Assembly (NCBI RefSeq): GCF_022846255.1 | Contig: NZ_AP025682.1 | Strand: one strand, 5' to 3' | DNA length: 64,000 bases | DNA from: Escherichia coli | Lineage (GTDB): Bacteria; Pseudomonadota; Gammaproteobacteria; Enterobacterales; Enterobacteriaceae | Notes under the pieces: generated by a model | What the model was told of the DNA's origin: nothing | Databases searched by the model: none | What the model saw: only the letters and a program-made list of their open reading frames with translations | Program-made: the position numbers and the translations under genes | In this document: positions 4,444-61,575 of the stretch, piece by piece | Numbering within the stretch: the stretch's first letter is position 1 | Layout of the letters: each line of letters begins with the position of its first letter

Positions 4444-4685
4444 GACGACTCCCTTTGATGAACCGATATTTTTGCTGCTTCACAATGCTTCGCTAAGCGT
4501 AATCATCGTTACGCCCTTGTTATAAATGGGAATGGTAATCATTATTTTCTCAAATGTGGAGCATTTCTTACCGTTACGACTACAATTTTCTCAATTACTT
4601 AACGTATTGTGCCGTTTCGTTTTCCATAATTTTACAATTTTATTACTATGACGGTGTTTTCCCCATTCTTAACCTGGCTTTTTTC

Positions 4686-52717: not shown

Positions 52718-55700
52718 ATGATTACTATTGACGGTAATGGCGCGGTTGCTTCGGTGGCGTTTCGCACCAGTGAAGTTATCGCCATCTACCCTATTACCCC
52801 CAGTTCCACGATGGCAGAACAGGCTGATGCATGGGCCGGAAACGGCTTGAAAAACGTTTGGGGAGACACACCACGCGTGGTTGAAATGCAGTCGGAAGCG
52901 GGTGCTATCGCTACCGTGCATGGTGCTTTGCAAACTGGTGCCCTCTCAACATCGTTTACGTCATCGCAGGGTTTGCTGCTGATGATCCCGACGCTGTACA
53001 AACTGGCAGGCGAACTCACACCGTTTGTCCTGCATGTTGCGGCACGTACCGTTGCCACACATGCACTCTCTATTTTTGGCGATCATTCCGACGTTATGGC
53101 GGTGCGCCAGACGGGTTGCGCGATGTTGTGTGCAGCAAACGTCCAGGAAGCGCAAGACTTTGCTCTCATTTCGCACATCGCGACGCTGAAAAGCCGCGTG
53201 CCATTTATTCATTTCTTTGATGGTTTCCGCACATCCCACGAAATCAATAAAATTGTCCCGCTGGCCGATGACACGATTCTTGAACTGATGCCGCAGGCAG
53301 AAATTGATGCTCATCGCGCCCGGGCACTCAACCCGGAACATCCGGTGATCCGCGGTACGTCCGCCAATCCTGACACTTATTTCCAGTCTCGCGAAGCCAC
53401 CAACCCATGGTACAACGCGGTCTATGACCATGTTGAACAGGCGATGAATGATTTCGCTGCCGCGACAGGTCGTCAGTATCAGCCGTTTGAGTATTACGGG
53501 CATCCGCAAGCGGAACGGGTGATTATCCTGATGGGCTCAGCCATTGGCACATGTGAAGAAGTGGTTGATGAATTGCTGACCCGTGGCGAAAAAGTCGGCG
53601 TGCTGAAAGTTCGCCTGTACCGCCCCTTCTCCGCCAAACACTTGCTGCAAGCTCTGCCGGGATCCGTGCGCAACGTGGCGGTACTGGACAGAACCAAAGA
53701 GCCTGGTGCCCAGGCAGAACCGCTCTATCTGGATGTGATGACCGCACTGGCAGAAGCCTTTAATAATGGCGAGCGTGAAACCCTGCCCCGTGTCATTGGT
53801 GGGCGCTATGGTCTTTCATCCAAAGAATTTGGCCCGGACTGTGTACTGGCGGTATTTGCCGAGCTCAACGCGGCTAAACCGAAAGCGCGCTTTACGGTTG
53901 GTATTTACGATGATGTAACCAATCTGTCACTGCCGTTGCCGGAAAACACCCTACCAAACTCGGCGAAACTGGAAGCCTTGTTTTATGGCCTTGGTAGTGA
54001 TGGCAGCGTTTCCGCGACCAAAAACAATATCAAGATTATCGGAAATTCCACGCCGTGGTACGCACAGGGCTATTTTGTTTACGACTCCAAAAAGGCGGGC
54101 GGCCTGACGGTTTCTCACCTTCGCGTGAGCGAACAGCCGATTCGTTCCGCTTATCTCATTTCCCAGGCTGATTTTGTTGGCTGCCACCAGTTGCAGTTTA
54201 TCGATAAATATCAGATGGCTGAGCGTTTAAAACCTGGCGGCATTTTCCTGCTCAACACGCCGTACAGCGCAGCTGAAGTGTGGTCGCGCTTGCCGCAGGA
54301 AGTTCAGGCCGTGCTAAACCAGAAAAAAGCGCGCTTCTATGTGATTAACGCGGCGAAAATCGCCCGCGAATGTGGCCTGGCGGCTCGTATTAATACCGTC
54401 ATGCAGATGGTTTTTTTCCATCTGACGCAGATTCTGCCTGGCGATAGCGCCCTGGCAGAATTGCAGGGTGCGATTGCCAAAAGTTACAGTAGCAAAGGCC
54501 AGGATCTGGTGGAACGCAACTGGCAGGCTCTGGCGCTAGCACGTGAATCCGTAGAAGAAGTTCCACTGCAGCCAGTTAATCCGCATAGCGCCAATCGACC
54601 GCCAGTGGTTTCCGATGCCGCTCCTGATTTCGTGAAAACCGTAACCGCTGCGATGCTCGCGGGGCTTGGCGACGCCCTCCCCGTTTCGGCACTGCCGCCA
54701 GACGGCACCTGGCCGATGGGCACCACGCGCTGGGAAAAACGCAATATCGCCGAAGAGATCCCCATCTGGAAAGAGGAACTCTGTACGCAATGTAACCACT
54801 GTGTCGCCGCTTGCCCACACTCAGCTATTCGCGCAAAAGTGGTACCGCCTGAAGCGATGGAAAACGCCCCTGCCAGCCTGCATTCGCTGGATGTGAAATC
54901 GCGTGATATGCGCGGGCAGAAATATGTCTTGCAGGTGGCTCCGGAAGATTGCACCGGTTGTAACTTGTGCGTCGAAGTTTGCCCGGCGAAAGACCGTCAG
55001 AATCCAGAGATTAAAGCCATCAATATGATGTCGCGCCTGGAACATGTCGAAGAAGAGAAAATCAATTACGATTTCTTCCTCAACCTGCCAGAAATCGACC
55101 GTAGCAAACTGGAACGTATTGATATTCGTACATCGCAGCTGATTACACCGCTGTTTGAATATTCAGGTGCTTGCTCCGGTTGTGGCGAGACGCCGTATAT
55201 TAAATTGCTGACTCAGCTCTATGGCGACCGGATGTTGATCGCTAATGCCACTGGCTGTTCTTCAATATACGGCGGTAACCTGCCTTCAACACCATATACC
55301 ACCGATGCCAATGGTCGTGGACCGGCATGGGCGAACTCGCTGTTTGAAGATAACGCCGAATTTGGCCTTGGTTTCCGCCTGACGGTCGATCAACATCGTG
55401 TCCGCGTGCTGCGTCTGCTCGATCAATTTGCCGATAAAATCCCGGCAGAATTACTGACTGCGTTGAAATCAGACGCCACGCCAGAGGTTCGTCGTGAACA
55501 GGTTGCAGCTTTACGCCAGCAACTCAACGATGTTGCTGAAGCACATGAACTGCTGCGTGACGCAGATGCCCTGGTGGAAAAATCAATCTGGCTGATTGGT
55601 GGCGATGGCTGGGCTTACGATATCGGCTTTGGCGGTCTGGATCATGTATTGAGTTTGACGGAAAACGTCAACATTCTGGTGCTGGATACGCAATGCTATT

Positions 55701-56242
55701 CCAACACCGGTGGTCAGGCGTCGAAAGCGACACCGCTGGGTGCAGTAACTAAGTTTGGCGAGCACGGCAAACGTAAAGCGCGTAAAGATCTTGGCGTCAG
55801 TATGATGATGTACGGTCATGTTTATGTGGCGCAGATTTCTCTCGGCGCGCAGCTGAACCAGACGGTGAAAGCGATTCAGGAAGCGGAAGCGTATCCGGGG
55901 CCATCGCTGATCATCGCTTATAGCCCATGTGAAGAGCATGGTTACGATCTGGCACTCAGCCACGATCAGATGCGCCAACTCACTGCTACCGGCTTCTGGC
56001 CGTTATATCGCTTCGATCCTCGTCGTGCCGATGAAGGCAAACTGCCGCTGGCGCTGGATTCACGCCCGCCGTCAGAAGCACTGGAAGAAACGTTACTTCA
56101 CGAGCAGCGTTTCCGTCGTCTGAATTCGCAGCAGCCAGAAGTGGCAGAACAGTTATGGAAAGATGCTGCAGCTGATTTGCAAAAGCGCTATGACTTCCTG
56201 GCACAAATGGCCGGAAAAGCGGAAAAAAGCAACACCGATTAA
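52718..56242 (+). CDS. ydbK: pyruvate:flavodoxin/ferredoxin oxidoreductase (1174 aa)
   Basis: ORF track; two 4Fe-4S ferredoxin CxxCxxCxxxCP motifs and TPP-binding domain. Confidence 0.95.
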   Translation: MITIDGNGAVASVAFRTSEVIAIYPITPSSTMAEQADAWAGNGLKNVWGDTPRVVEMQSEAGAIATVHGALQTGALSTSFTSSQGLLLMIPTLYKLAGELTPFVLHVAARTVATHALSIFGDHSDVMAVRQTGCAMLCAANVQEAQDFALISHIATLKSRVPFIHFFDGFRTSHEINKIVPLADDTILELMPQAEIDAHRARALNPEHPVIRGTSANPDTYFQSREATNPWYNAVYDHVEQAMNDFAAATGRQYQPFEYYGHPQAERVIILMGSAIGTCEEVVDELLTRGEKVGVLKVRLYRPFSAKHLLQALPGSVRNVAVLDRTKEPGAQAEPLYLDVMTALAEAFNNGERETLPRVIGGRYGLSSKEFGPDCVLAVFAELNAAKPKARFTVGIYDDVTNLSLPLPENTLPNSAKLEALFYGLGSDGSVSATKNNIKIIGNSTPWYAQGYFVYDSKKAGGLTVSHLRVSEQPIRSAYLISQADFVGCHQLQFIDKYQMAERLKPGGIFLLNTPYSAAEVWSRLPQEVQAVLNQKKARFYVINAAKIARECGLAARINTVMQMVFFHLTQILPGDSALAELQGAIAKSYSSKGQDLVERNWQALALARESVEEVPLQPVNPHSANRPPVVSDAAPDFVKTVTAAMLAGLGDALPVSALPPDGTWPMGTTRWEKRNIAEEIPIWKEELCTQCNHCVAACPHSAIRAKVVPPEAMENAPASLHSLDVKSRDMRGQKYVLQVAPEDCTGCNLCVEVCPAKDRQNPEIKAINMMSRLEHVEEEKINYDFFLNLPEIDRSKLERIDIRTSQLITPLFEYSGACSGCGETPYIKLLTQLYGDRMLIANATGCSSIYGGNLPSTPYTTDANGRGPAWANSLFEDNAEFGLGFRLTVDQHRVRVLRLLDQFADKIPAELLTALKSDATPEVRREQVAALRQQLNDVAEAHELLRDADALVEKSIWLIGGDGWAYDIGFGGLDHVLSLTENVNILVLDTQCYSNTGGQASKATPLGAVTKFGEHGKRKARKDLGVSMMMYGHVYVAQISLGAQLNQTVKAIQEAEAYPGPSLIIAYSPCEEHGYDLALSHDQMRQLTATGFWPLYRFDPRRADEGKLPLALDSRPPSEALEETLLHEQRFRRLNSQQPEVAEQLWKDAAADLQKRYDFLAQMAGKAEKSNTD

Positions 56243-56607: not shown

Positions 56608-57741
56608 ATGAAAAGCAAAGTACTGGCACTCTTAATTCCTGCCCTGCTCGCTGCAGGTGCTGCACATGCAGCCGAAGTTTATAATAAAGACGGCAACAAA
56701 TTAGATCTGTATGGCAAAGTTGATGGCCTGCATTATTTTTCTGATAATTCAGCGAAAGATGGCGACCAGAGCTATGCTCGTCTGGGTTTTAAAGGCGAAA
56801 CCCAAATTAACGATCAACTCACTGGCTACGGTCAATGGGAATACAATATTCAGGCAAACAACACCGAATCTTCAACAAACCAGTCATGGACCCGTCTGGC
56901 ATTTGCCGGACTGAAATTTGCAGATTACGGTTCTTTCGATTACGGACGTAATTATGGCGTAATGTACGACATCGAAGGCTGGACTGATATGCTACCTGAA
57001 TTTGGCGGTGACTCTTATACCAATGCAGACAACTTTATGACTGGTCGTGCCAATGGCGTCGCGACTTATCGTAATGCTGATTTCTTCGGTCTGGTAAATG
57101 GTCTGAACTTCGCGGTGCAGTATCAAGGTAACAACGAAGGTGCCAGTAATGGTCAGGAAGGCACCAACAACGGACGTGATGTTCGCCATGAAAACGGTGA
57201 CGGCTGGGGTCTTTCCACAACATATGATTTAGGCATGGGCTTTAACGCTGGTGCGGCATACACCTCTTCTGACCGCACCAATGACCAGGTTAACCATACT
57301 GCGGCGGGTGGTGATAAAGCAGACGCGTGGACTGCTGGGCTAAAATACGATGCTAACAATATTTACCTGGCAACCATGTATTCAGAAACGCGTAATATGA
57401 CCCCGTTTGGCGACAGCGATTATGCTGTTGCAAACAAAACCCAGAACTTTGAAGTCACTGCACAGTACCAGTTTGATTTTGGTCTGCGTCCGGCAGTCTC
57501 TTTCCTGATGTCTAAAGGCCGTGACCTGCACGCTGCCGGTGGTGCAGACAACCCAGCAGGTGTTGATGATAAAGATCTGGTTAAATACGCCGATGTTGGC
57601 GCGACTTACTATTTCAATAAAAACATGTCCACCTATGTTGACTATAAAATCAACCTGTTGGATGAAGATGACAGTTTCTACGCTGCCAACGGCATCTCTA
57701 CCGATGATATCGTCGCTTTAGGTCTGGTTTATCAGTTCTAA
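56608..57741 (+). CDS. ompN: outer membrane porin OmpN (377 aa)
   Basis: ORF track; signal peptide, general-porin family, C-terminal ...LVYQF. Confidence 0.93.
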
Positions 57742-57773: not shown

Positions 57774-57800
57774 CTGCCTATTCATCCTCCTTTGATCTAA

Positions 57801-58316
<516 letters not shown>

Positions 58317-58323
58317 CACTAAC

Positions 58324-58348
58324 GCCCGCACATTGCTGCGGGCTTTTT
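58324..58348 (+). terminator. rho-independent terminator of uspF
   Basis: GCCCGCA-CATTGC-TGCGGGC followed by TTTTT. Confidence 0.65.
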
Positions 58349-58502
58349 GATTCATTTCGCAAATGTGCTGACATTTTCCCCTCTAATCATTACAATTTAA
58401 ATTTATGAATTATGCATTGATAATCGCTATTATAATATCGTTCCCTGTGCATTATTATCAGTTTTTCTGGTATTAAAAGACTGGGCGCTAATAGGAGATG
58501 CA

Positions 58503-59004
58503 ATGAACCACGCAATGTTTCCTGGCATAGTTCTAGCCTGGATTATAGGTATGCCGCTGGGAATTGGTGCATTTATTGTAGGACTGTCTTGTGCAATTGC
58601 AACTGGCTATCTGAAAGATAATAGCATCATAAAGAAAGATACCATTATAGGTATCGTTTTTTCAGGAATTTTTGTCTTGACTATCAACAGGCACAAGTCA
58701 GCGGATTACAGATATCATTATTACATTACAGTTTACTCTGCATGGTATCGCCTACCATTTTTGCCACATTAAAAGCAGTCGGAATTATTCTGTCTATATA
58801 CTATTAACAGCTCCAGGGTCTATTGCTGTCCTCACCACGCGTCGCTTTCATAAGGCATTACTTATCGCCGTAACGATATCAATAACAATATCAGGCGTAT
58901 GGTTATTATATTTTCTCGACAGAGCCCCAGCGCCGACAATCGTCCTCTTATTTGCTGTAGCATTTCTTTTCGCGCTGATAATAATCAATTTTCGGAAACA
59001 ATAA
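58503..59004 (+). pseudogene. membrane protein remnant resembling the C-terminal half of an ABC-3 family (ZnuB/MntB/SitD-type) metal-transport permease; two frameshifts
   Basis: AGGAG-ATG start, then hydrophobic reading continues through three frames; final frame ends ...FLDRAPAPTIVLLFAVAFLFALIIINFRKQ, like the conserved ABC-3 permease C-terminus; AT-rich codon usage. Confidence 0.45.
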
Positions 59005-59283
59005 TCTCAACAGTAGAATAAAGAGGCAAATCAATCATTACATATATAAGATGGTGCTAATATTGTACCGCCTTTAAATTGAATTTTATCCTTTCACCCT
59101 TACACAATTTAAGGAATGCAGATGACTATTTTATCAGCTCCCAGCCTTTTTCCTGGTAATCGAAAACTTGAAAATCATTAACTCTAAGAAATTCTGCCAA
59201 ATCGTTGAAATTACTTTAAATTAGACTCGAACAAATCAACCCCTGATGGGGCTTTTACTTATCAATTTAATCGTGTAGATATC

Positions 59284-59331
59284 GACCTCCATCTGCCCGC
59301 CTCAGATTCGTACCTGGTGGAGGTCTTTTTT
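59284..59331 (+). terminator. orphan terminator-like hairpin with U-tract in the AT-rich remnant region
   Basis: GACCTCCA...TGGAGGTC 8-10 bp stem followed by TTTTTT; a second small hairpin (CCCCTGATGGGG) lies about 40 nt upstream; no annotated gene ends here. Confidence 0.4.
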
Positions 59332-59392
59332 CGTTGCCTCTTTCCCCCTTTAGTTCAGTATAAAATCATCAAACTAATGCTGTTCACACTAT

Positions 59393-59572
59393 TTACCTCC
59401 AGCATTCTATATAAATAATAGAAATAAAAACCCCAATACATAGTGCATTGGCATGACCAAACATCAATGCCATTATACTCGCCTCTGTTAAATACTCGCT
59501 AGTTAATATGATAGGCACGCATGATATAACAATCCATATGCTAATACATAAATACACCAGTATTTTTCTCAT
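59393..59572 (-). CDS. candidate small membrane protein (59 aa), AT-rich, unknown function
   Basis: Hand translation: MRKILVYLCISIWIVISCVPIILTSEYLTEASIMALMFGHANALCIGVFISIIYIECWR; AGGGA RBS-like 7 nt upstream; two hydrophobic segments; below ORF-track cut-off. Confidence 0.3.
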   Translation of the reverse strand: MRKILVYLCISIWIVISCVPIILTSEYLTEASIMALMFGHANALCIGVFISIIYIECWR

Positions 59573-60279
59573 AGTCAGTCCCTGTGATTAACAACAAGGC
59601 ATAGTTAAACATATTTCACATTCAAACGTAAACATTATTAATAAAATTCTGTCAATCAAACTGACATCACGATTCAAGCCCTCTTCAAACTGAAGGTTAG
59701 AGCAGCGTAGAACATTTCAAAACAATACACTAAAAAAATACCCGAACAAAAAACTTAATTCTTTTTTATTGTGAACTTTAGTAATTTTGCCATGCAACTC
59801 TTTATTACATTTAGGCCTATCTTATTTCATGGCAACGCAGATACAGGACCATTTCTTGTGCTATGGATAAGTAATAAGCTAGTTACATCTTTTTAAGAGA
59901 ACCATTTTCACATATCAAGATATCATCACCACCCACAATGAATTAAGTATTTTTCTTATTCTTTAGATTAGATGCGTAATGAATCCCTAACTCCATTCGG
60001 GCGTTATGGCTCTTTCATTTGAAATACATTCATATCCAATGTAATATTTCCATGCGCAAATATAACTACCGACCATACTCATCATTTATTACAGAGAATT
60101 ATTTTATTCACCGAAAAGTTTCACAAAATATCCCCTGATAGAAAACTAAAAAACACTGCATAATATCGCTATTCTGGCACTTGCGAAAAATTATATTCTG
60201 CACCTGTTGTAGCGTTCTATTTCTCCGCCTGGCAACGAATGCACAATGTCCGCCACAGTTTCTGTTCTAATTTCTTCCT

Positions 60280-60588
60280 GTGTTACCGCATCCTGTACGG
60301 GTAGCGCAACACCAGCATGCTAAGCAAGGCTTTCCCATCAGATTTCACTACGACTATTTGGGAGCGAGATGGAATGCAGCAGTAAAACGTGCTGGTATTC
60401 GCCGCCGTAATCCGTACCATACGCGACATACTTTTGCCTGCTGGCTGTTGACGGCAGGAGCGAACCCGGCATTTATAGCCAGCCAGATGGGGCATGAAAC
60501 TGCGCAGATGGTGTATGAAATTTACGGTATGTGGATTGATGACATGAACGACGAACAGGTAGCCATGTTAAATGCGCGGTTATCGTAG
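60280..60588 (+). pseudogene. phage tyrosine integrase, C-terminal fragment (Rac-type integrase remnant)
   Basis: ORF carries the integrase C-terminal catalytic region (...HTRHTFACWLLTAGANPAFIASQMGHETAQMVYEIY...); no N-terminal or core-binding domain; directly upstream of ttcA. Confidence 0.7.
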
Positions 60589-60639
60589 TTGCAAAGTTTG
60601 CCCTCAATATGCCCCACTTAGTACCAGAGAACTGAAATA

Positions 60640-61575
60640 ATGCAAGAAAATCAACAAATTACAAAGAAAGAACAATACAACCTGAACAAATTACAAAAAC
60701 GTCTGCGTCGTAACGTGGGCGAAGCCATTGCTGACTTCAATATGATTGAAGAAGGCGATCGCATCATGGTTTGCCTCTCCGGGGGTAAAGACAGCTATAC
60801 CATGCTGGAGATTCTGCGCAATTTGCAGCAAAGCGCGCCAATCAATTTTTCGCTGGTGGCTGTTAACCTCGATCAAAAGCAACCGGGCTTCCCGGAACAC
60901 GTTCTGCCCGAGTATCTTGAAAAGCTGGGCGTTGAGTACAAGATTGTTGAAGAGAACACTTACGGTATCGTGAAAGAGAAGATTCCGGAGGGCAAAACCA
61001 CTTGCTCACTGTGTTCTCGCCTGCGTCGCGGTATCCTTTATCGTACCGCAACGGAACTAGGGGCGACGAAGATCGCACTGGGTCACCATCGTGACGATAT
61101 CCTGCAAACGCTGTTCTTAAATATGTTCTACGGTGGCAAGATGAAAGGTATGCCTCCGAAACTGATGAGCGATGATGGCAAACATATCGTGATCCGTCCG
61201 CTGGCCTACTGCCGCGAGAAAGATATTCAGCGCTTTGCCGATGCAAAAGCGTTCCCGATTATTCCGTGCAACCTGTGCGGTTCACAGCCTAACCTGCAAC
61301 GTCAGGTGATTGCTGACATGTTGCGTGACTGGGATAAACGTTATCCGGGGCGTATCGAGACGATGTTCAGCGCAATGCAGAATGTGGTGCCGTCGCATCT
61401 GTGCGATACCAACCTGTTCGATTTCAAAGGCATTACCCACGGTTCTGAAGTGGTTAACGGGGGTGATCTGGCGTTTGATCGCGAAGAGATCCCACTACAA
61501 CCAGCGGGCTGGCAGCCTGAAGAAGATGAAAATCAGTTGGATGAGTTACGGCTGAATGTGGTTGAAGTGAAATAA
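60640..61575 (+). CDS. ttcA: tRNA-cytidine(32) 2-sulfurtransferase TtcA (311 aa)
   Basis: ORF track; PP-loop motif SGGKDS and CxxC pairs. Confidence 0.93.

What the first reader, a model, noticed from the sequence alone, without database searches (positions are those of the whole stretch)
58503..59004. ABC-3 type metal permease fragment with its own SD-ATG and two frameshifts
Seen in sequence: a well-formed RBS and ATG open a hydrophobic ORF that needs two frame changes to reach a ZnuB/MntB/SitD-like C-terminus (...DRAPAPTIVLL...). AT-rich codons suggest foreign origin. The good start on a fragment is unusual.
Basis: partly seen in the sequence, partly recalled or inferred. Interest (0 to 1): 0.35.

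Follow-up and report, generated by a model that had tools for sequence, protein, structure and literature searches.

The report
Decayed sitD-like permease pseudogene
This is a dead, broken copy of a manganese/iron transporter membrane gene (SitD type), probably left by a long-decayed prophage in one E. coli lineage; it is already labelled a frameshifted pseudogene in public annotations and is ordinary.

Summary
Window 58390-59004 (+) is a relic of an ABC-3 metal permease. Pfam PF00950 matches all three forward frames, and the closest intact proteins are SitD (62-76% aa per segment).

The coordinates and the reading of the start are off. Homology runs upstream to 58390. The "SD + ATG" at 58493-58505 is the codon string Ile-Gly-Asp-Ala-Met of the conserved SitD motif GDAM(S/N)HA, so the ATG is an internal Met codon.

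Lesions against intact sitD:
- a 23-nt 5' truncation, with sitABC absent
- a 1-nt deletion in a C run near 58442, found only in the E2348/69-like lineage
- a 169-nt internal deletion after 58673
- a 1-nt deletion near 58799
- a 6-nt in-frame deletion

The locus is present in 1044 of 5426 complete E. coli genomes, always between uspF and ttcA. PGAP calls it "metal ABC transporter permease, frameshifted". Eight alleles carry four independent 1-nt indels and one IS insertion, and their substitutions look neutral (15 non-synonymous to 5 synonymous, ratio 0.96). This rules out sequencing error and argues against function.

Order and orientation (sitD', ren', DUF1627', int', ttcA) match a lambdoid prophage with sitABCD cargo, as in phage Perceval. 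Already known; low interest.

The parts
58324..58350 (+). Intrinsic terminator of uspF (GCCCGCACATTGCTGCGGGC followed by TTTTTG). It separates the relic from upstream transcription.
   Evidence: Terminator scan. The uspF CDS ends at 58316.
58351..58388 (+). Start of an ancient integrase remnant that non-carrier E. coli also have. In K-12 it continues as ..KCADIFPS-NPYHTRHSF... Here it is cut off at 58388 and joined to the sitD relic.
   Evidence: K-12 is 98.8% identical to the window up to about 58388-58396 and then diverges. The K-12 sequence across that point is 76% identical to the int fragment at window 60385-60435 and translates to the NPYHTRH integrase motif. Non-carrier genomes match only 58317-58388.
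58390..58446 (+). Relic segment A, SitD residues 9-27 (LQFKFMNYALIIAIIISFP). It contains ATG 58405, which PGAP uses as the pseudogene start and which aligns to Met14 of SitD. The first 23 nt of sitD and all of sitABC are missing.
   Evidence: tblastn with SitD, DNA alignment A2, PGAP feature. tblastn finds no SitA in the window and only a generic ABC ATPase for SitB.
58442..58444 (+). Frameshift 1: a C run of 3 where other alleles have 4 (a 1-nt deletion). It is specific to the E2348/69-like lineage. This lesion makes ATG 58503 the first start codon of the downstream ORF.
   Evidence: Allele alignments. The deletion is in the window and A25 and absent from EcN, M1/5, WP4, CFE299 and two Logan contigs. 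The E2348/69 reference has the same 600-nt PGAP pseudogene span as the window.
58440..58673 (+). Relic segment B, SitD residues 26-103 (75.6% aa identity).
   Evidence: tblastn. Pfam ABC-3 profile positions 39-98, E 5.8e-13.
58493..58505 (+). These are the codons ATA GGA GAT GCA ATG (I-G-D-A-M) of the conserved GDAM(S/N)HA motif. In intact sitD the same codons read ATG GGT GAC GCG ATG, with no SD-like sequence.
   Evidence: Base rate of the pattern in the window.
58673..58674 (+). Junction of a 169-nt internal deletion, roughly SitD residues 104-159, which also shifts the frame. It is shared by all alleles examined. The flanks resemble each other in intact sitD (GGCATGTTTG and GGGATTTTTTG), which suggests deletion between short repeats; this is inference.
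   Evidence: DNA alignment A2, gap columns 313-481. The tblastn segments skip SitD 104-151. Pfam profile positions 99-142 are unmatched.
58674..58798 (+). Relic segment C, SitD residues about 160-201 (DYQQAQVSGLQISLLHYSLLCMVSPTIFATLKAVGIILSI), in a second frame.
   Evidence: tblastn, 70-74% aa identity. Pfam profile positions 143-191, E 4.4e-9.
58799..58800 (+). Frameshift 3: a 1-nt deletion in the codon for SitD Ser202. It is shared by all alleles examined. One genome (CFE299) has ISEc40 inserted at this point.
58801..59004 (+). Relic segment D, SitD residues 203-271 (62% aa identity), containing ...DRAPAPTIVLL.... It has a 6-nt in-frame deletion and an early stop at 59002-59004.
   Evidence: tblastn, Pfam profile positions 193-257, DNA alignment A2.
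59005..60110 (.). AT-rich filler (33.8% GC) of unknown origin. It belongs to the same lineage-specific 2-kb block but has no recognisable gene.
   Evidence: No Pfam or PHROG hit for any stop-to-stop segment of 35 aa or more. No Rfam match. No similarity to the DNA downstream of sitD in phage Perceval.
60111..60266 (-). C-terminal fragment of a Ren-like lambdoid exclusion protein. PGAP does not annotate it.
   Evidence: phrog_142, E 4.4e-7, profile positions 80-114 of 116.
60194..60345 (-). DUF1627 (lambdoid early-region protein) fragment. PGAP marks it as a frameshifted partial pseudogene.
   Evidence: PF07789, E 5.6e-11. PGAP feature in the E2348/69 record, which converts to window 60230-60345.
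60358..60588 (+). 3' fragment of a Rac-type integrase gene (intR-like), directly upstream of ttcA (60640-61575).
   Evidence: PGAP annotation. It is 96-98% identical to the 3' end of intact intR in Rac-carrying genomes.

Best explanation
Window 58390-59004 is a non-functional pseudogene, the decayed remainder of a SitD-type permease gene. SitD is the second membrane subunit of a SitABCD-like Mn2+/Fe2+ ABC importer.

The gene lost its partners sitABC and its first 8 codons. It also lost about 56 internal codons, and its reading frame is broken in two places in all carriers and in a third place in this strain's lineage. It makes no transporter and has been drifting neutrally.

The apparent ribosome-binding site and ATG at 58493-58505 are the internal codons Ile-Gly-Asp-Ala-Met of the ancestral gene. 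That ATG heads an ORF only because a lineage-specific 1-nt deletion upstream disconnected the N-terminal part.

Most likely history (inferred):
1. A Rac-like lambdoid phage carrying a divergent, AT-rich sit operon in its b region integrated at ttcA in an ancestor of the carrier lineage.
2. Deletions then removed nearly everything.
3. What remains is sitD', about 1.1 kb of AT-rich filler, ren', DUF1627' and int', lying next to ttcA.
For: Identity
- PF00950 matches all three forward frames, and a conceptual repair scores 84.9 bits against a cutoff of 20.1.
- tblastn with SitD gives four collinear segments at 53-76% aa identity.
- SitC matches at only 41-43%.

Lesions
- They are mapped on a DNA alignment with intact sitD.

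Not an artefact
- 1044 of 5426 complete genomes match the segment, 1033 of them over at least 80% of it, at 95-100% identity.
- PGAP flags the locus as a frameshifted pseudogene in each of the six records inspected.

Neutral decay
- Eight alleles show four independent 1-nt indels plus an ISEc40 insertion.
- They differ at 15 non-synonymous and 5 synonymous sites, against a site ratio of 3.11. The resulting ratio is 0.96.
- ORF boundaries differ between lineages: 89 aa here, about 122 aa in EcN, and 199 aa in some Logan assemblies.

No partners
- SitA is absent from the window and SitB matches only a generic ABC ATPase far away. The uspF terminator lies 40 nt upstream.

Prophage history
- Carriers lack the 3' part of the ancient integrase remnant and the native ttcA 5' end that K-12 keeps.
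- The ren-like, DUF1627 and intR-like fragments lie between the relic and ttcA.
- Lambdoid phages such as Perceval and the Lambda_ev series carry sitABCD between attP and the tail fibre genes, on the same strand as int.
- That layout predicts the order and orientation seen here.
Against: - There is no direct expression data. The best sigma-70-like match in the region (CTGACA-17-TACAAT, 58368-58396) lies just upstream of ATG 58405, so some transcription and translation of short hydrophobic peptides cannot be excluded.
- The prophage-cargo history is inferred from order and orientation only. No genome with the intact ancestral prophage or an intact copy of this sit allele was found.
- The 1.1 kb downstream of the relic matches nothing.
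- The int' fragment is about 97% identical to modern intR, while the relic is only about 67% nt identical to modern sitD. The two need not have arrived together.
Confidence: 0.92

Rival explanations
1. The frameshifts are sequencing or assembly errors in homopolymers, and the real gene is one intact frame.
For: One of the three frame changes lies in a C run (CCC against CCCC at about 58442).
Against: - The 169-nt deletion and the -1 near 58799 are in all eight alleles examined, from independently sequenced genomes.
- 1033 complete genomes carry at least 80% of the segment at 95-100% identity, and PGAP calls it frameshifted in every record inspected.
- The CCC variant is in this window and in strain A25, and the E2348/69 reference has the same 600-nt pseudogene span. 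The window differs from that reference at 55 positions over 10.7 kb, so it is a separate sequence.
- Even with every 1-nt indel repaired, the gene would still lack 169 internal nt, 8 N-terminal codons and sitABC.
Confidence: 0.01
2. The SD-ATG at 58493-58505 is a real start. The 89-aa hydrophobic ORF (58503-58772), or its 122 to 199-aa versions in other strains, is expressed as a small membrane protein with a new function.
For: - The AGGAG motif has a 5-nt spacer before ATG and is conserved in all alleles.
- A promoter-like site lies at 58368-58396.
- Some lineages have an uninterrupted 199-aa ORF, P0001.
Against: - The SD-like bases and the ATG are explained by ancestral codons.
- The ORF's ends differ between lineages through independent indels and an IS insertion.
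- Substitutions fit neutrality, with a ratio of 0.96.
- The product would hold about two of the eight or more helices of the parent fold, followed by an out-of-frame tail.
Confidence: 0.04
3. The relic comes from a non-phage genomic island that once lay between uspF and ttcA, independent of the neighbouring prophage fragments. It would still be a dead pseudogene.
For: - The relic and the 1.1 kb after it are much more AT-rich (34-38% GC) than the int', ren' and DUF1627' pieces.
- It is only 67-68% nt identical to phage or plasmid sitD.
- A review reports that sit islands occupy several chromosomal sites and rearrange often (PMC7545054).
Against: - The orientation and position of sitD' relative to int' and ttcA are those predicted from sit-carrying lambdoid phages.
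- The carriers' left junction cuts through an older integrase remnant and removes the native ttcA 5' end. That is what a deletion running from the chromosome into a prophage integrated at ttcA would give.
Confidence: 0.25
4. Programmed ribosomal frameshifting reads through the frame changes to make a functional permease.
For: None beyond the existence of frame changes.
Against: - One 'shift' is a 169-nt deletion that removes about 56 residues of the membrane domain.
- The shift sites differ between lineages.
- No partner genes are present.
- No Rfam frameshift element or any other RNA family matches.
Confidence: 0.005

Closest known systems
SitD, the permease subunit of the SitABCD Mn2+/Fe2+ ABC importer of E. 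coli, Shigella and Salmonella, including copies carried by lambdoid phages (e.g. phage Perceval) and ColV-type plasmids
   Same: - It has the ABC-3 fold signature and is collinear with SitD residues 9-271.
- Identity is 75.6%, 70% and 62% aa in the three main segments, and it is clearly closer to SitD than to SitC.
- It shows the same GDAM(S/N)HA and SAPAPTIV-type motifs.
- Its position and strand relative to a prophage integrase match those in sit-carrying lambdoid phages.
   Different: - It is only 67-68% nt identical, with 37.6% GC against 49%.
- It has a 5' truncation, a 169-nt internal deletion, two or three frameshifts and an early stop.
- sitABC is absent.
- It is not a recent decayed copy of the modern E. 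coli sit operon. It is the relic of a distinct allele with no intact relative above about 71% identity in 1.84 billion representative proteins.
PGAP pseudogene 'metal ABC transporter permease, frameshifted' (E2348C_RS29615 in NC_011601.1 and its equivalents in other carrier genomes)
   Same: It is the same locus. The sequence is 100% identical over window 58480-59010, and the annotated span converts to window 58405-59004.
   Different: - PGAP starts the feature at ATG 58405, whereas homology starts at 58390.
- PGAP gives no subfamily and no history.
- It does not annotate the neighbouring ren-like fragment.
Rac cryptic prophage at ttcA in E. coli K-12 (intR ... ynaE, with the ttcC pseudogene at attR)
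   Same: - It uses the same integration site.
- The int' fragment here is 96-98% identical to the 3' end of intR.
- The ttcA 5' end here is the phage-supplied version, 93% identical to the displaced ttcC of K-12.
   Different: - K-12 Rac is 23 kb and carries no annotated sit genes in the stretch fetched here, stfR to ttcC.
- Here only about 0.5 kb of recognisable lambdoid fragments remain.
- The attR side, including ttcC, has been deleted.

Membership tests
ABC-3 transport family (Pfam PF00950; ZnuB/MntB/SitC/SitD permeases) | Sequence match to the family HMM above the gathering score | tested here: met
   The three frame pieces score 49.4, 36.7 and 30.9 bits, and the conceptual repair scores 84.9 bits, against a cutoff of 20.1.
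ABC-3 transport family (Pfam PF00950; ZnuB/MntB/SitC/SitD permeases) | One uninterrupted ORF of about 260-290 aa covering the whole membrane domain | tested here: not met
   Profile positions 1-38 are barely represented and 99-142 are absent. The relic needs three frames and has a 169-nt deletion. It descends from the family but is not a functional member.
ABC-3 transport family (Pfam PF00950; ZnuB/MntB/SitC/SitD permeases) | Operon partners: a cluster-9 substrate-binding protein, an ATPase and usually a second permease | tested here: not met
   tblastn with SitA, SitB and SitC finds no SitA. SitB matches only a generic 30%-identical ABC ATPase at 14.3-14.9 kb. SitC matches only the relic itself, weakly. 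The neighbours are uspF and prophage debris.
SitD subfamily (iron/manganese ABC transporter permease subunit SitD) | Closest intact homologues are SitD rather than SitC, ZnuB, MntB or AztB | tested here: met
   - The top named hits are SitD of E. coli and Enterobacter and close enterobacterial 'metal ABC transporter permeases'.
- Identity is 62-76% to SitD against 41-43% to SitC.
- NCBIfam HMMs (AztB, SloB) score far below their cutoffs, and no SitD model appeared among the NCBIfam matches.
SitD subfamily (iron/manganese ABC transporter permease subunit SitD) | Mn2+/Fe2+ transport activity | not testable with these tools
   Activity is not expected, given the lesions.
Lambdoid prophage remnant at ttcA (Rac-type) | Integrase gene adjacent to ttcA with a phage-supplied ttcA 5' end | tested here: met
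   The int' fragment at 60358-60588 is 96-98% identical to intR. It ends 51 nt before ttcA, about the spacing I recall for K-12 intR-ttcA (not fetched here). The ttcA 5' end is 93% identical to K-12 ttcC.
Lambdoid prophage remnant at ttcA (Rac-type) | Other lambdoid genes in the map order and orientation expected relative to int | tested here: met
   ren' (-) and DUF1627' (-) lie distal to int' (+), and sitD' (+) lies at the far end. This is the arrangement in phage Perceval once it is permuted at attP. The fragments are tiny, so this is supportive rather than conclusive.
Lambdoid prophage remnant at ttcA (Rac-type) | attL/attR repeats bounding the element | tested here: not met
   No ttcC-like attR copy lies between uspF and the relic. 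The only match to ttcC in 57800-61000 is the ttcA 5' end itself. This fits a deletion of the attR side.

The most novel reading that the evidence does not exclude
The relic could be the only surviving trace of an otherwise unsampled, AT-rich sit-like operon lineage that a Rac-like phage brought to the ancestor of the carrier strains. In addition, the deletion junction created a near-consensus promoter (CTGACA-17-TACAAT, 58368-58396). That promoter might now drive small hydrophobic peptides of 89 to 199 aa, depending on lineage, with some membrane effect.
Probability: 0.04. Interest if true: 0.3.

Novelty: already known. Interest (0 to 1): 0.08.

Why it matters
It matters little biologically. 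This is a dead gene that standard annotation already flags.

It has three small practical uses:
- It shows how an internal conserved motif (Gly-Asp-Ala-Met), once recoded with AT-rich codons, can mimic a Shine-Dalgarno sequence plus ATG and mislead ORF-based reading.
- Gene callers sometimes emit "ABC-3 proteins" from this pseudogene, which pollutes protein databases. Examples are the 199-aa P0001, the 122-aa and 101-aa cluster representatives, and a 56-aa RefSeq CDS.
- The presence or absence of the 2-kb block between uspF and ttcA is a clean binary lineage marker, present in 1043-1044 of 5426 complete genomes. It also records an old prophage integration at ttcA, in carrier strains that have only debris of that prophage left there.

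Tried and rejected
- I first took ATG 58363 (M-C-*-H-F-P-L-*-S...) for the original sitD start. I rejected this because K-12, which lacks the relic, shares that sequence up to 58388. There it is part of an integrase remnant (KCADIFPSNPYHTRHSF).
- A search for an intact close relative failed. The word-indexed search of 5.8 billion proteins found nothing intact above about 71% identity in aligned parts. The exhaustive HMMER search of 1.84 billion representatives gave its best full-length hits at 62-71%, and the 88-98% hits were short ORFs of 100-122 aa, probably called from this same pseudogene.
- A peptide-pattern scan of 100,044 species-representative genomes found no related locus. I did not establish whether the E. 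coli representative in that collection carries the relic, so its absence from other Escherichia species is not proven.
- Megablast against all complete E. coli genomes found no intermediate forms. Genomes have either the whole 2.3 kb or only its ends.
- Distant blastn against phages and plasmids matched only sitD at 67-68% and small lambdoid pieces. Two 'plasmid' records with 100% coverage look like chromosomal sequence, but I did not check this.
- The 1.1 kb downstream (59005-60110) gave no Pfam, PHROG or Rfam hit and no similarity to the DNA after sitD in phage Perceval.
- NCBIfam gave no subfamily call, since all hits were far below their cutoffs.
- The primary paper on sit islands that the review cites (Fisher et al. 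2009) was not found under the DOI I tried from memory. I used the review PMC7545054 instead.

Full report
**Where we are.** The window around the finding reads ompN (56608-57741), uspF (ends 58316), about 2 kb of AT-rich DNA, an integrase fragment, then ttcA (60640-61575), all on the + strand. It is 99.5% identical over 10.7 kb to E. coli O127:H6 E2348/69, and 100% identical over 58480-59010. In that RefSeq record PGAP annotates a pseudogene, "metal ABC transporter permease, frameshifted" (E2348C_RS29615). Its span converts to window 58405-59004.

**Checking the observation.**
- The ORF at 58503-58772 (89 aa, hydrophobic) exists and is preceded by AGGAG at 58493-58497.
- Pfam ABC-3 (PF00950) matches all three forward frames. 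The frame of the ATG covers profile positions 39-98 (E 5.8e-13), a second frame covers 143-191 (4.4e-9), and a third covers 193-257 (2.5e-7). A conceptual repair scores 84.9 bits.
- The segment has 37.6% GC and GC3 of 0.26-0.39. Phage-borne sitD has 49% GC and GC3 of 0.57.

tblastn with E. coli SitD (285 aa) gives four collinear pieces:

| SitD residues | Window coordinates | aa identity |
|---|---|---|
| 9-27 | 58390-58446 | 53% |
| 26-103 | 58440-58673 | 75.6% |
| 152-201 | 58649-58798 | 70% |
| 203-271 | 58801-58995 | 62% |

- The relic therefore begins at 58390, not 58503.
- The ATG is the Met of the conserved motif GDAM(S/N)HA.
- The SD-like AGGAG is made of the codons ATA-GGA-GAT. In intact sitD these read ATG-GGT-GAC, with no SD-like sequence.
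- The "good start on a fragment" is therefore a by-product of AT-rich codon choice in an internal motif.
- That ATG is the first start codon of its ORF only because of an upstream 1-nt deletion found in this lineage.

**Lesions.** A DNA alignment with sitD of phage Perceval and an alignment of eight alleles give the following list.
1. The first 23 nt of sitD are missing, as is everything upstream of it. No SitA or SitB homologue accompanies the relic, and the remnant is SitD-like (62-76%) rather than SitC-like (41-43%).
2. A 1-nt deletion in a C run near 58442 is present in this window and A25. The E2348/69 reference has the same 600-nt pseudogene span. The deletion is absent from EcN, M1/5, WP4, CFE299 and two Logan contigs.
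3. A 169-nt deletion after 58673 (about SitD residues 104-159) is shared by all eight alleles.
4. A 1-nt deletion near 58799 is shared by all eight alleles.
5. There is also a 6-nt in-frame deletion and an early stop.

Other lineages add their own damage: +T near 58535 (M1/5, CFE299), -T at 58732 (two Logan contigs), -T at 58911 (WP4) and an ISEc40 insertion at 58800 (CFE299). The -T at 58732 happens to fuse frames into an uninterrupted 199-aa ORF, P0001. That ORF still reads about 35 codons out of the ancestral frame.

**Function.**
- Among the alleles there are 15 non-synonymous and 5 synonymous differences in the ancestral frames. The site ratio is 3.11, which gives a ratio of 0.96, so there is no sign of constraint.
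- ORF ends differ between lineages.
- The uspF terminator lies just upstream.
- No RNA family matches.
- Everything points to a dead gene drifting neutrally.
- The one loose end is a promoter-like site (CTGACA-17-TACAAT, 58368-58396) that spans the junction. Such matches are common in AT-rich DNA: 16 were found in the region against 10 expected.

**Not a sequencing artefact.** 1044 of 5426 complete genomes match the segment, 1033 of them over at least 80% of it, at 95-100% identity. It always lies between uspF and ttcA, and PGAP calls it frameshifted in all six records inspected. The shared lesions recur in all eight alleles examined.

**History (inferred).**
- All other E. coli genomes match only 58317-58388, plus the intR 3' end where Rac is present.
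- K-12 is identical to the window up to about 58388. It then continues with an older integrase remnant (..KCADIFPS-NPYHTRHSF..), followed by the native ttcA 5' end (ttcC) and Rac.
- In carriers that old remnant is cut at 58388 and ttcC is gone.
- Between the relic and ttcA lie a Ren-like fragment (60111-60266, -, phrog_142, E 4e-7), a DUF1627 fragment (-, PF07789, E 6e-11) and the 3' end of an intR-type integrase (+, 96-98% identical to Rac intR).
- Lambdoid phages in GenBank (Perceval, the Lambda_ev series) carry sitABCD between attP and the tail-fibre genes, on the same strand as int.
- Permuted at attP, that map predicts the layout seen here: sit at the far end pointing inward, early-right genes on the opposite strand, and int next to the target gene.
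- The simplest account is that a Rac-like phage with a divergent sit cargo integrated at ttcA. A deletion from the chromosome into sitD, together with internal deletions, then left this debris.
- I put about 0.65 on that account and about 0.25 on an unrelated island.
- No intact copy of this allele was found anywhere. The best full-length relatives are about 70% identical.

**Comparison with what is known.**
- By descent it is a SitD-type ABC-3 permease.
- It fails the tests for a functional member: it is not one ORF, it lacks the full membrane domain, and it has no partners.
- It is the same object as the PGAP pseudogene. A review places the functional sit system of phylogroup B2 strains such as 536, S88, APEC O1 and LF82 in an island at icd (PMC7545054). 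This relic is therefore a second, older sit acquisition.
- The carriers I recognise are B2 strains, from my own knowledge of them: E2348/69, Nissle, ATCC 25922, JJ1886 and APEC O1:K1:H7. I did not test this here.

**Verdict.** The feature is already known and ordinary, so interest is low.

Noticed in passing
window 58351-58388 (and K-12 NC_000913.3 about 1435090-1435140): An integrase-gene remnant sits right after the uspF terminator. It is shared by carriers and non-carriers. In K-12 it reads ..KCADIFPSNPYHTRHSF.. and is 76% identical to the Rac-type int fragment. This suggests an integration near ttcA that predates Rac.
   Followed up: partly
window 60111-60266 (-): A C-terminal fragment of a Ren-like lambdoid exclusion protein (phrog_142, E 4.4e-7). 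PGAP does not annotate it in the E2348/69 record.
   Followed up: partly
window 58368-58396 (+): The best sigma-70-like match in the region (CTGACA-17-TACAAT, 10 of 12). Its -35 element lies in the old integrase remnant and its -10 element in sitD codons, so it was created by the deletion junction. It lies 9 nt upstream of ATG 58405.
   Followed up: no
window 59393-59572 (-): A 59-aa hydrophobic ORF (MRKILVYLCISIWIV...). It is intact in the E2348/69-type allele. In four other alleles an indel is present and the start sequence was not found. It has no Pfam or PHROG hit and is probably noise in AT-rich DNA.
   Followed up: partly
window 59284-59331 (+): A 10-bp GC-rich stem (GACCUCCAUC / GGUGGAGGUC) with a 22-nt loop, followed by U6, about 280 nt after the relic's stop. 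The fold is -17.2 kcal/mol with a z-score of only -1.3. It may be an old terminator.
   Followed up: partly
window 53539-55765 (nifJ/ydbK): The window is not E2348/69 itself. It differs from NC_011601.1 at 55 positions over 10.7 kb. Most of these lie in nifJ, including 8 differences within 25 nt at 53704-53728, which looks like a recombination tract.
   Followed up: no
L003 (NZ_OZ465017.1) 4455-4625; P0001, P0124, P0125: Gene callers emit 'proteins' from this pseudogene. Examples are a 56-aa RefSeq CDS named metal ABC transporter permease downstream of an ISEc40 insertion, a 199-aa Logan ORF, and 101-aa and 122-aa cluster representatives. They are minor database contaminants.
   Followed up: partly
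window 60640-60690 (ttcA 5' end): The first ~50 nt of ttcA are the phage-supplied version, 93% identical to the displaced ttcC pseudogene of K-12. The ttcA gene here is therefore a chimera of prophage-derived and native sequence, even though almost no prophage remains.
   Followed up: partly
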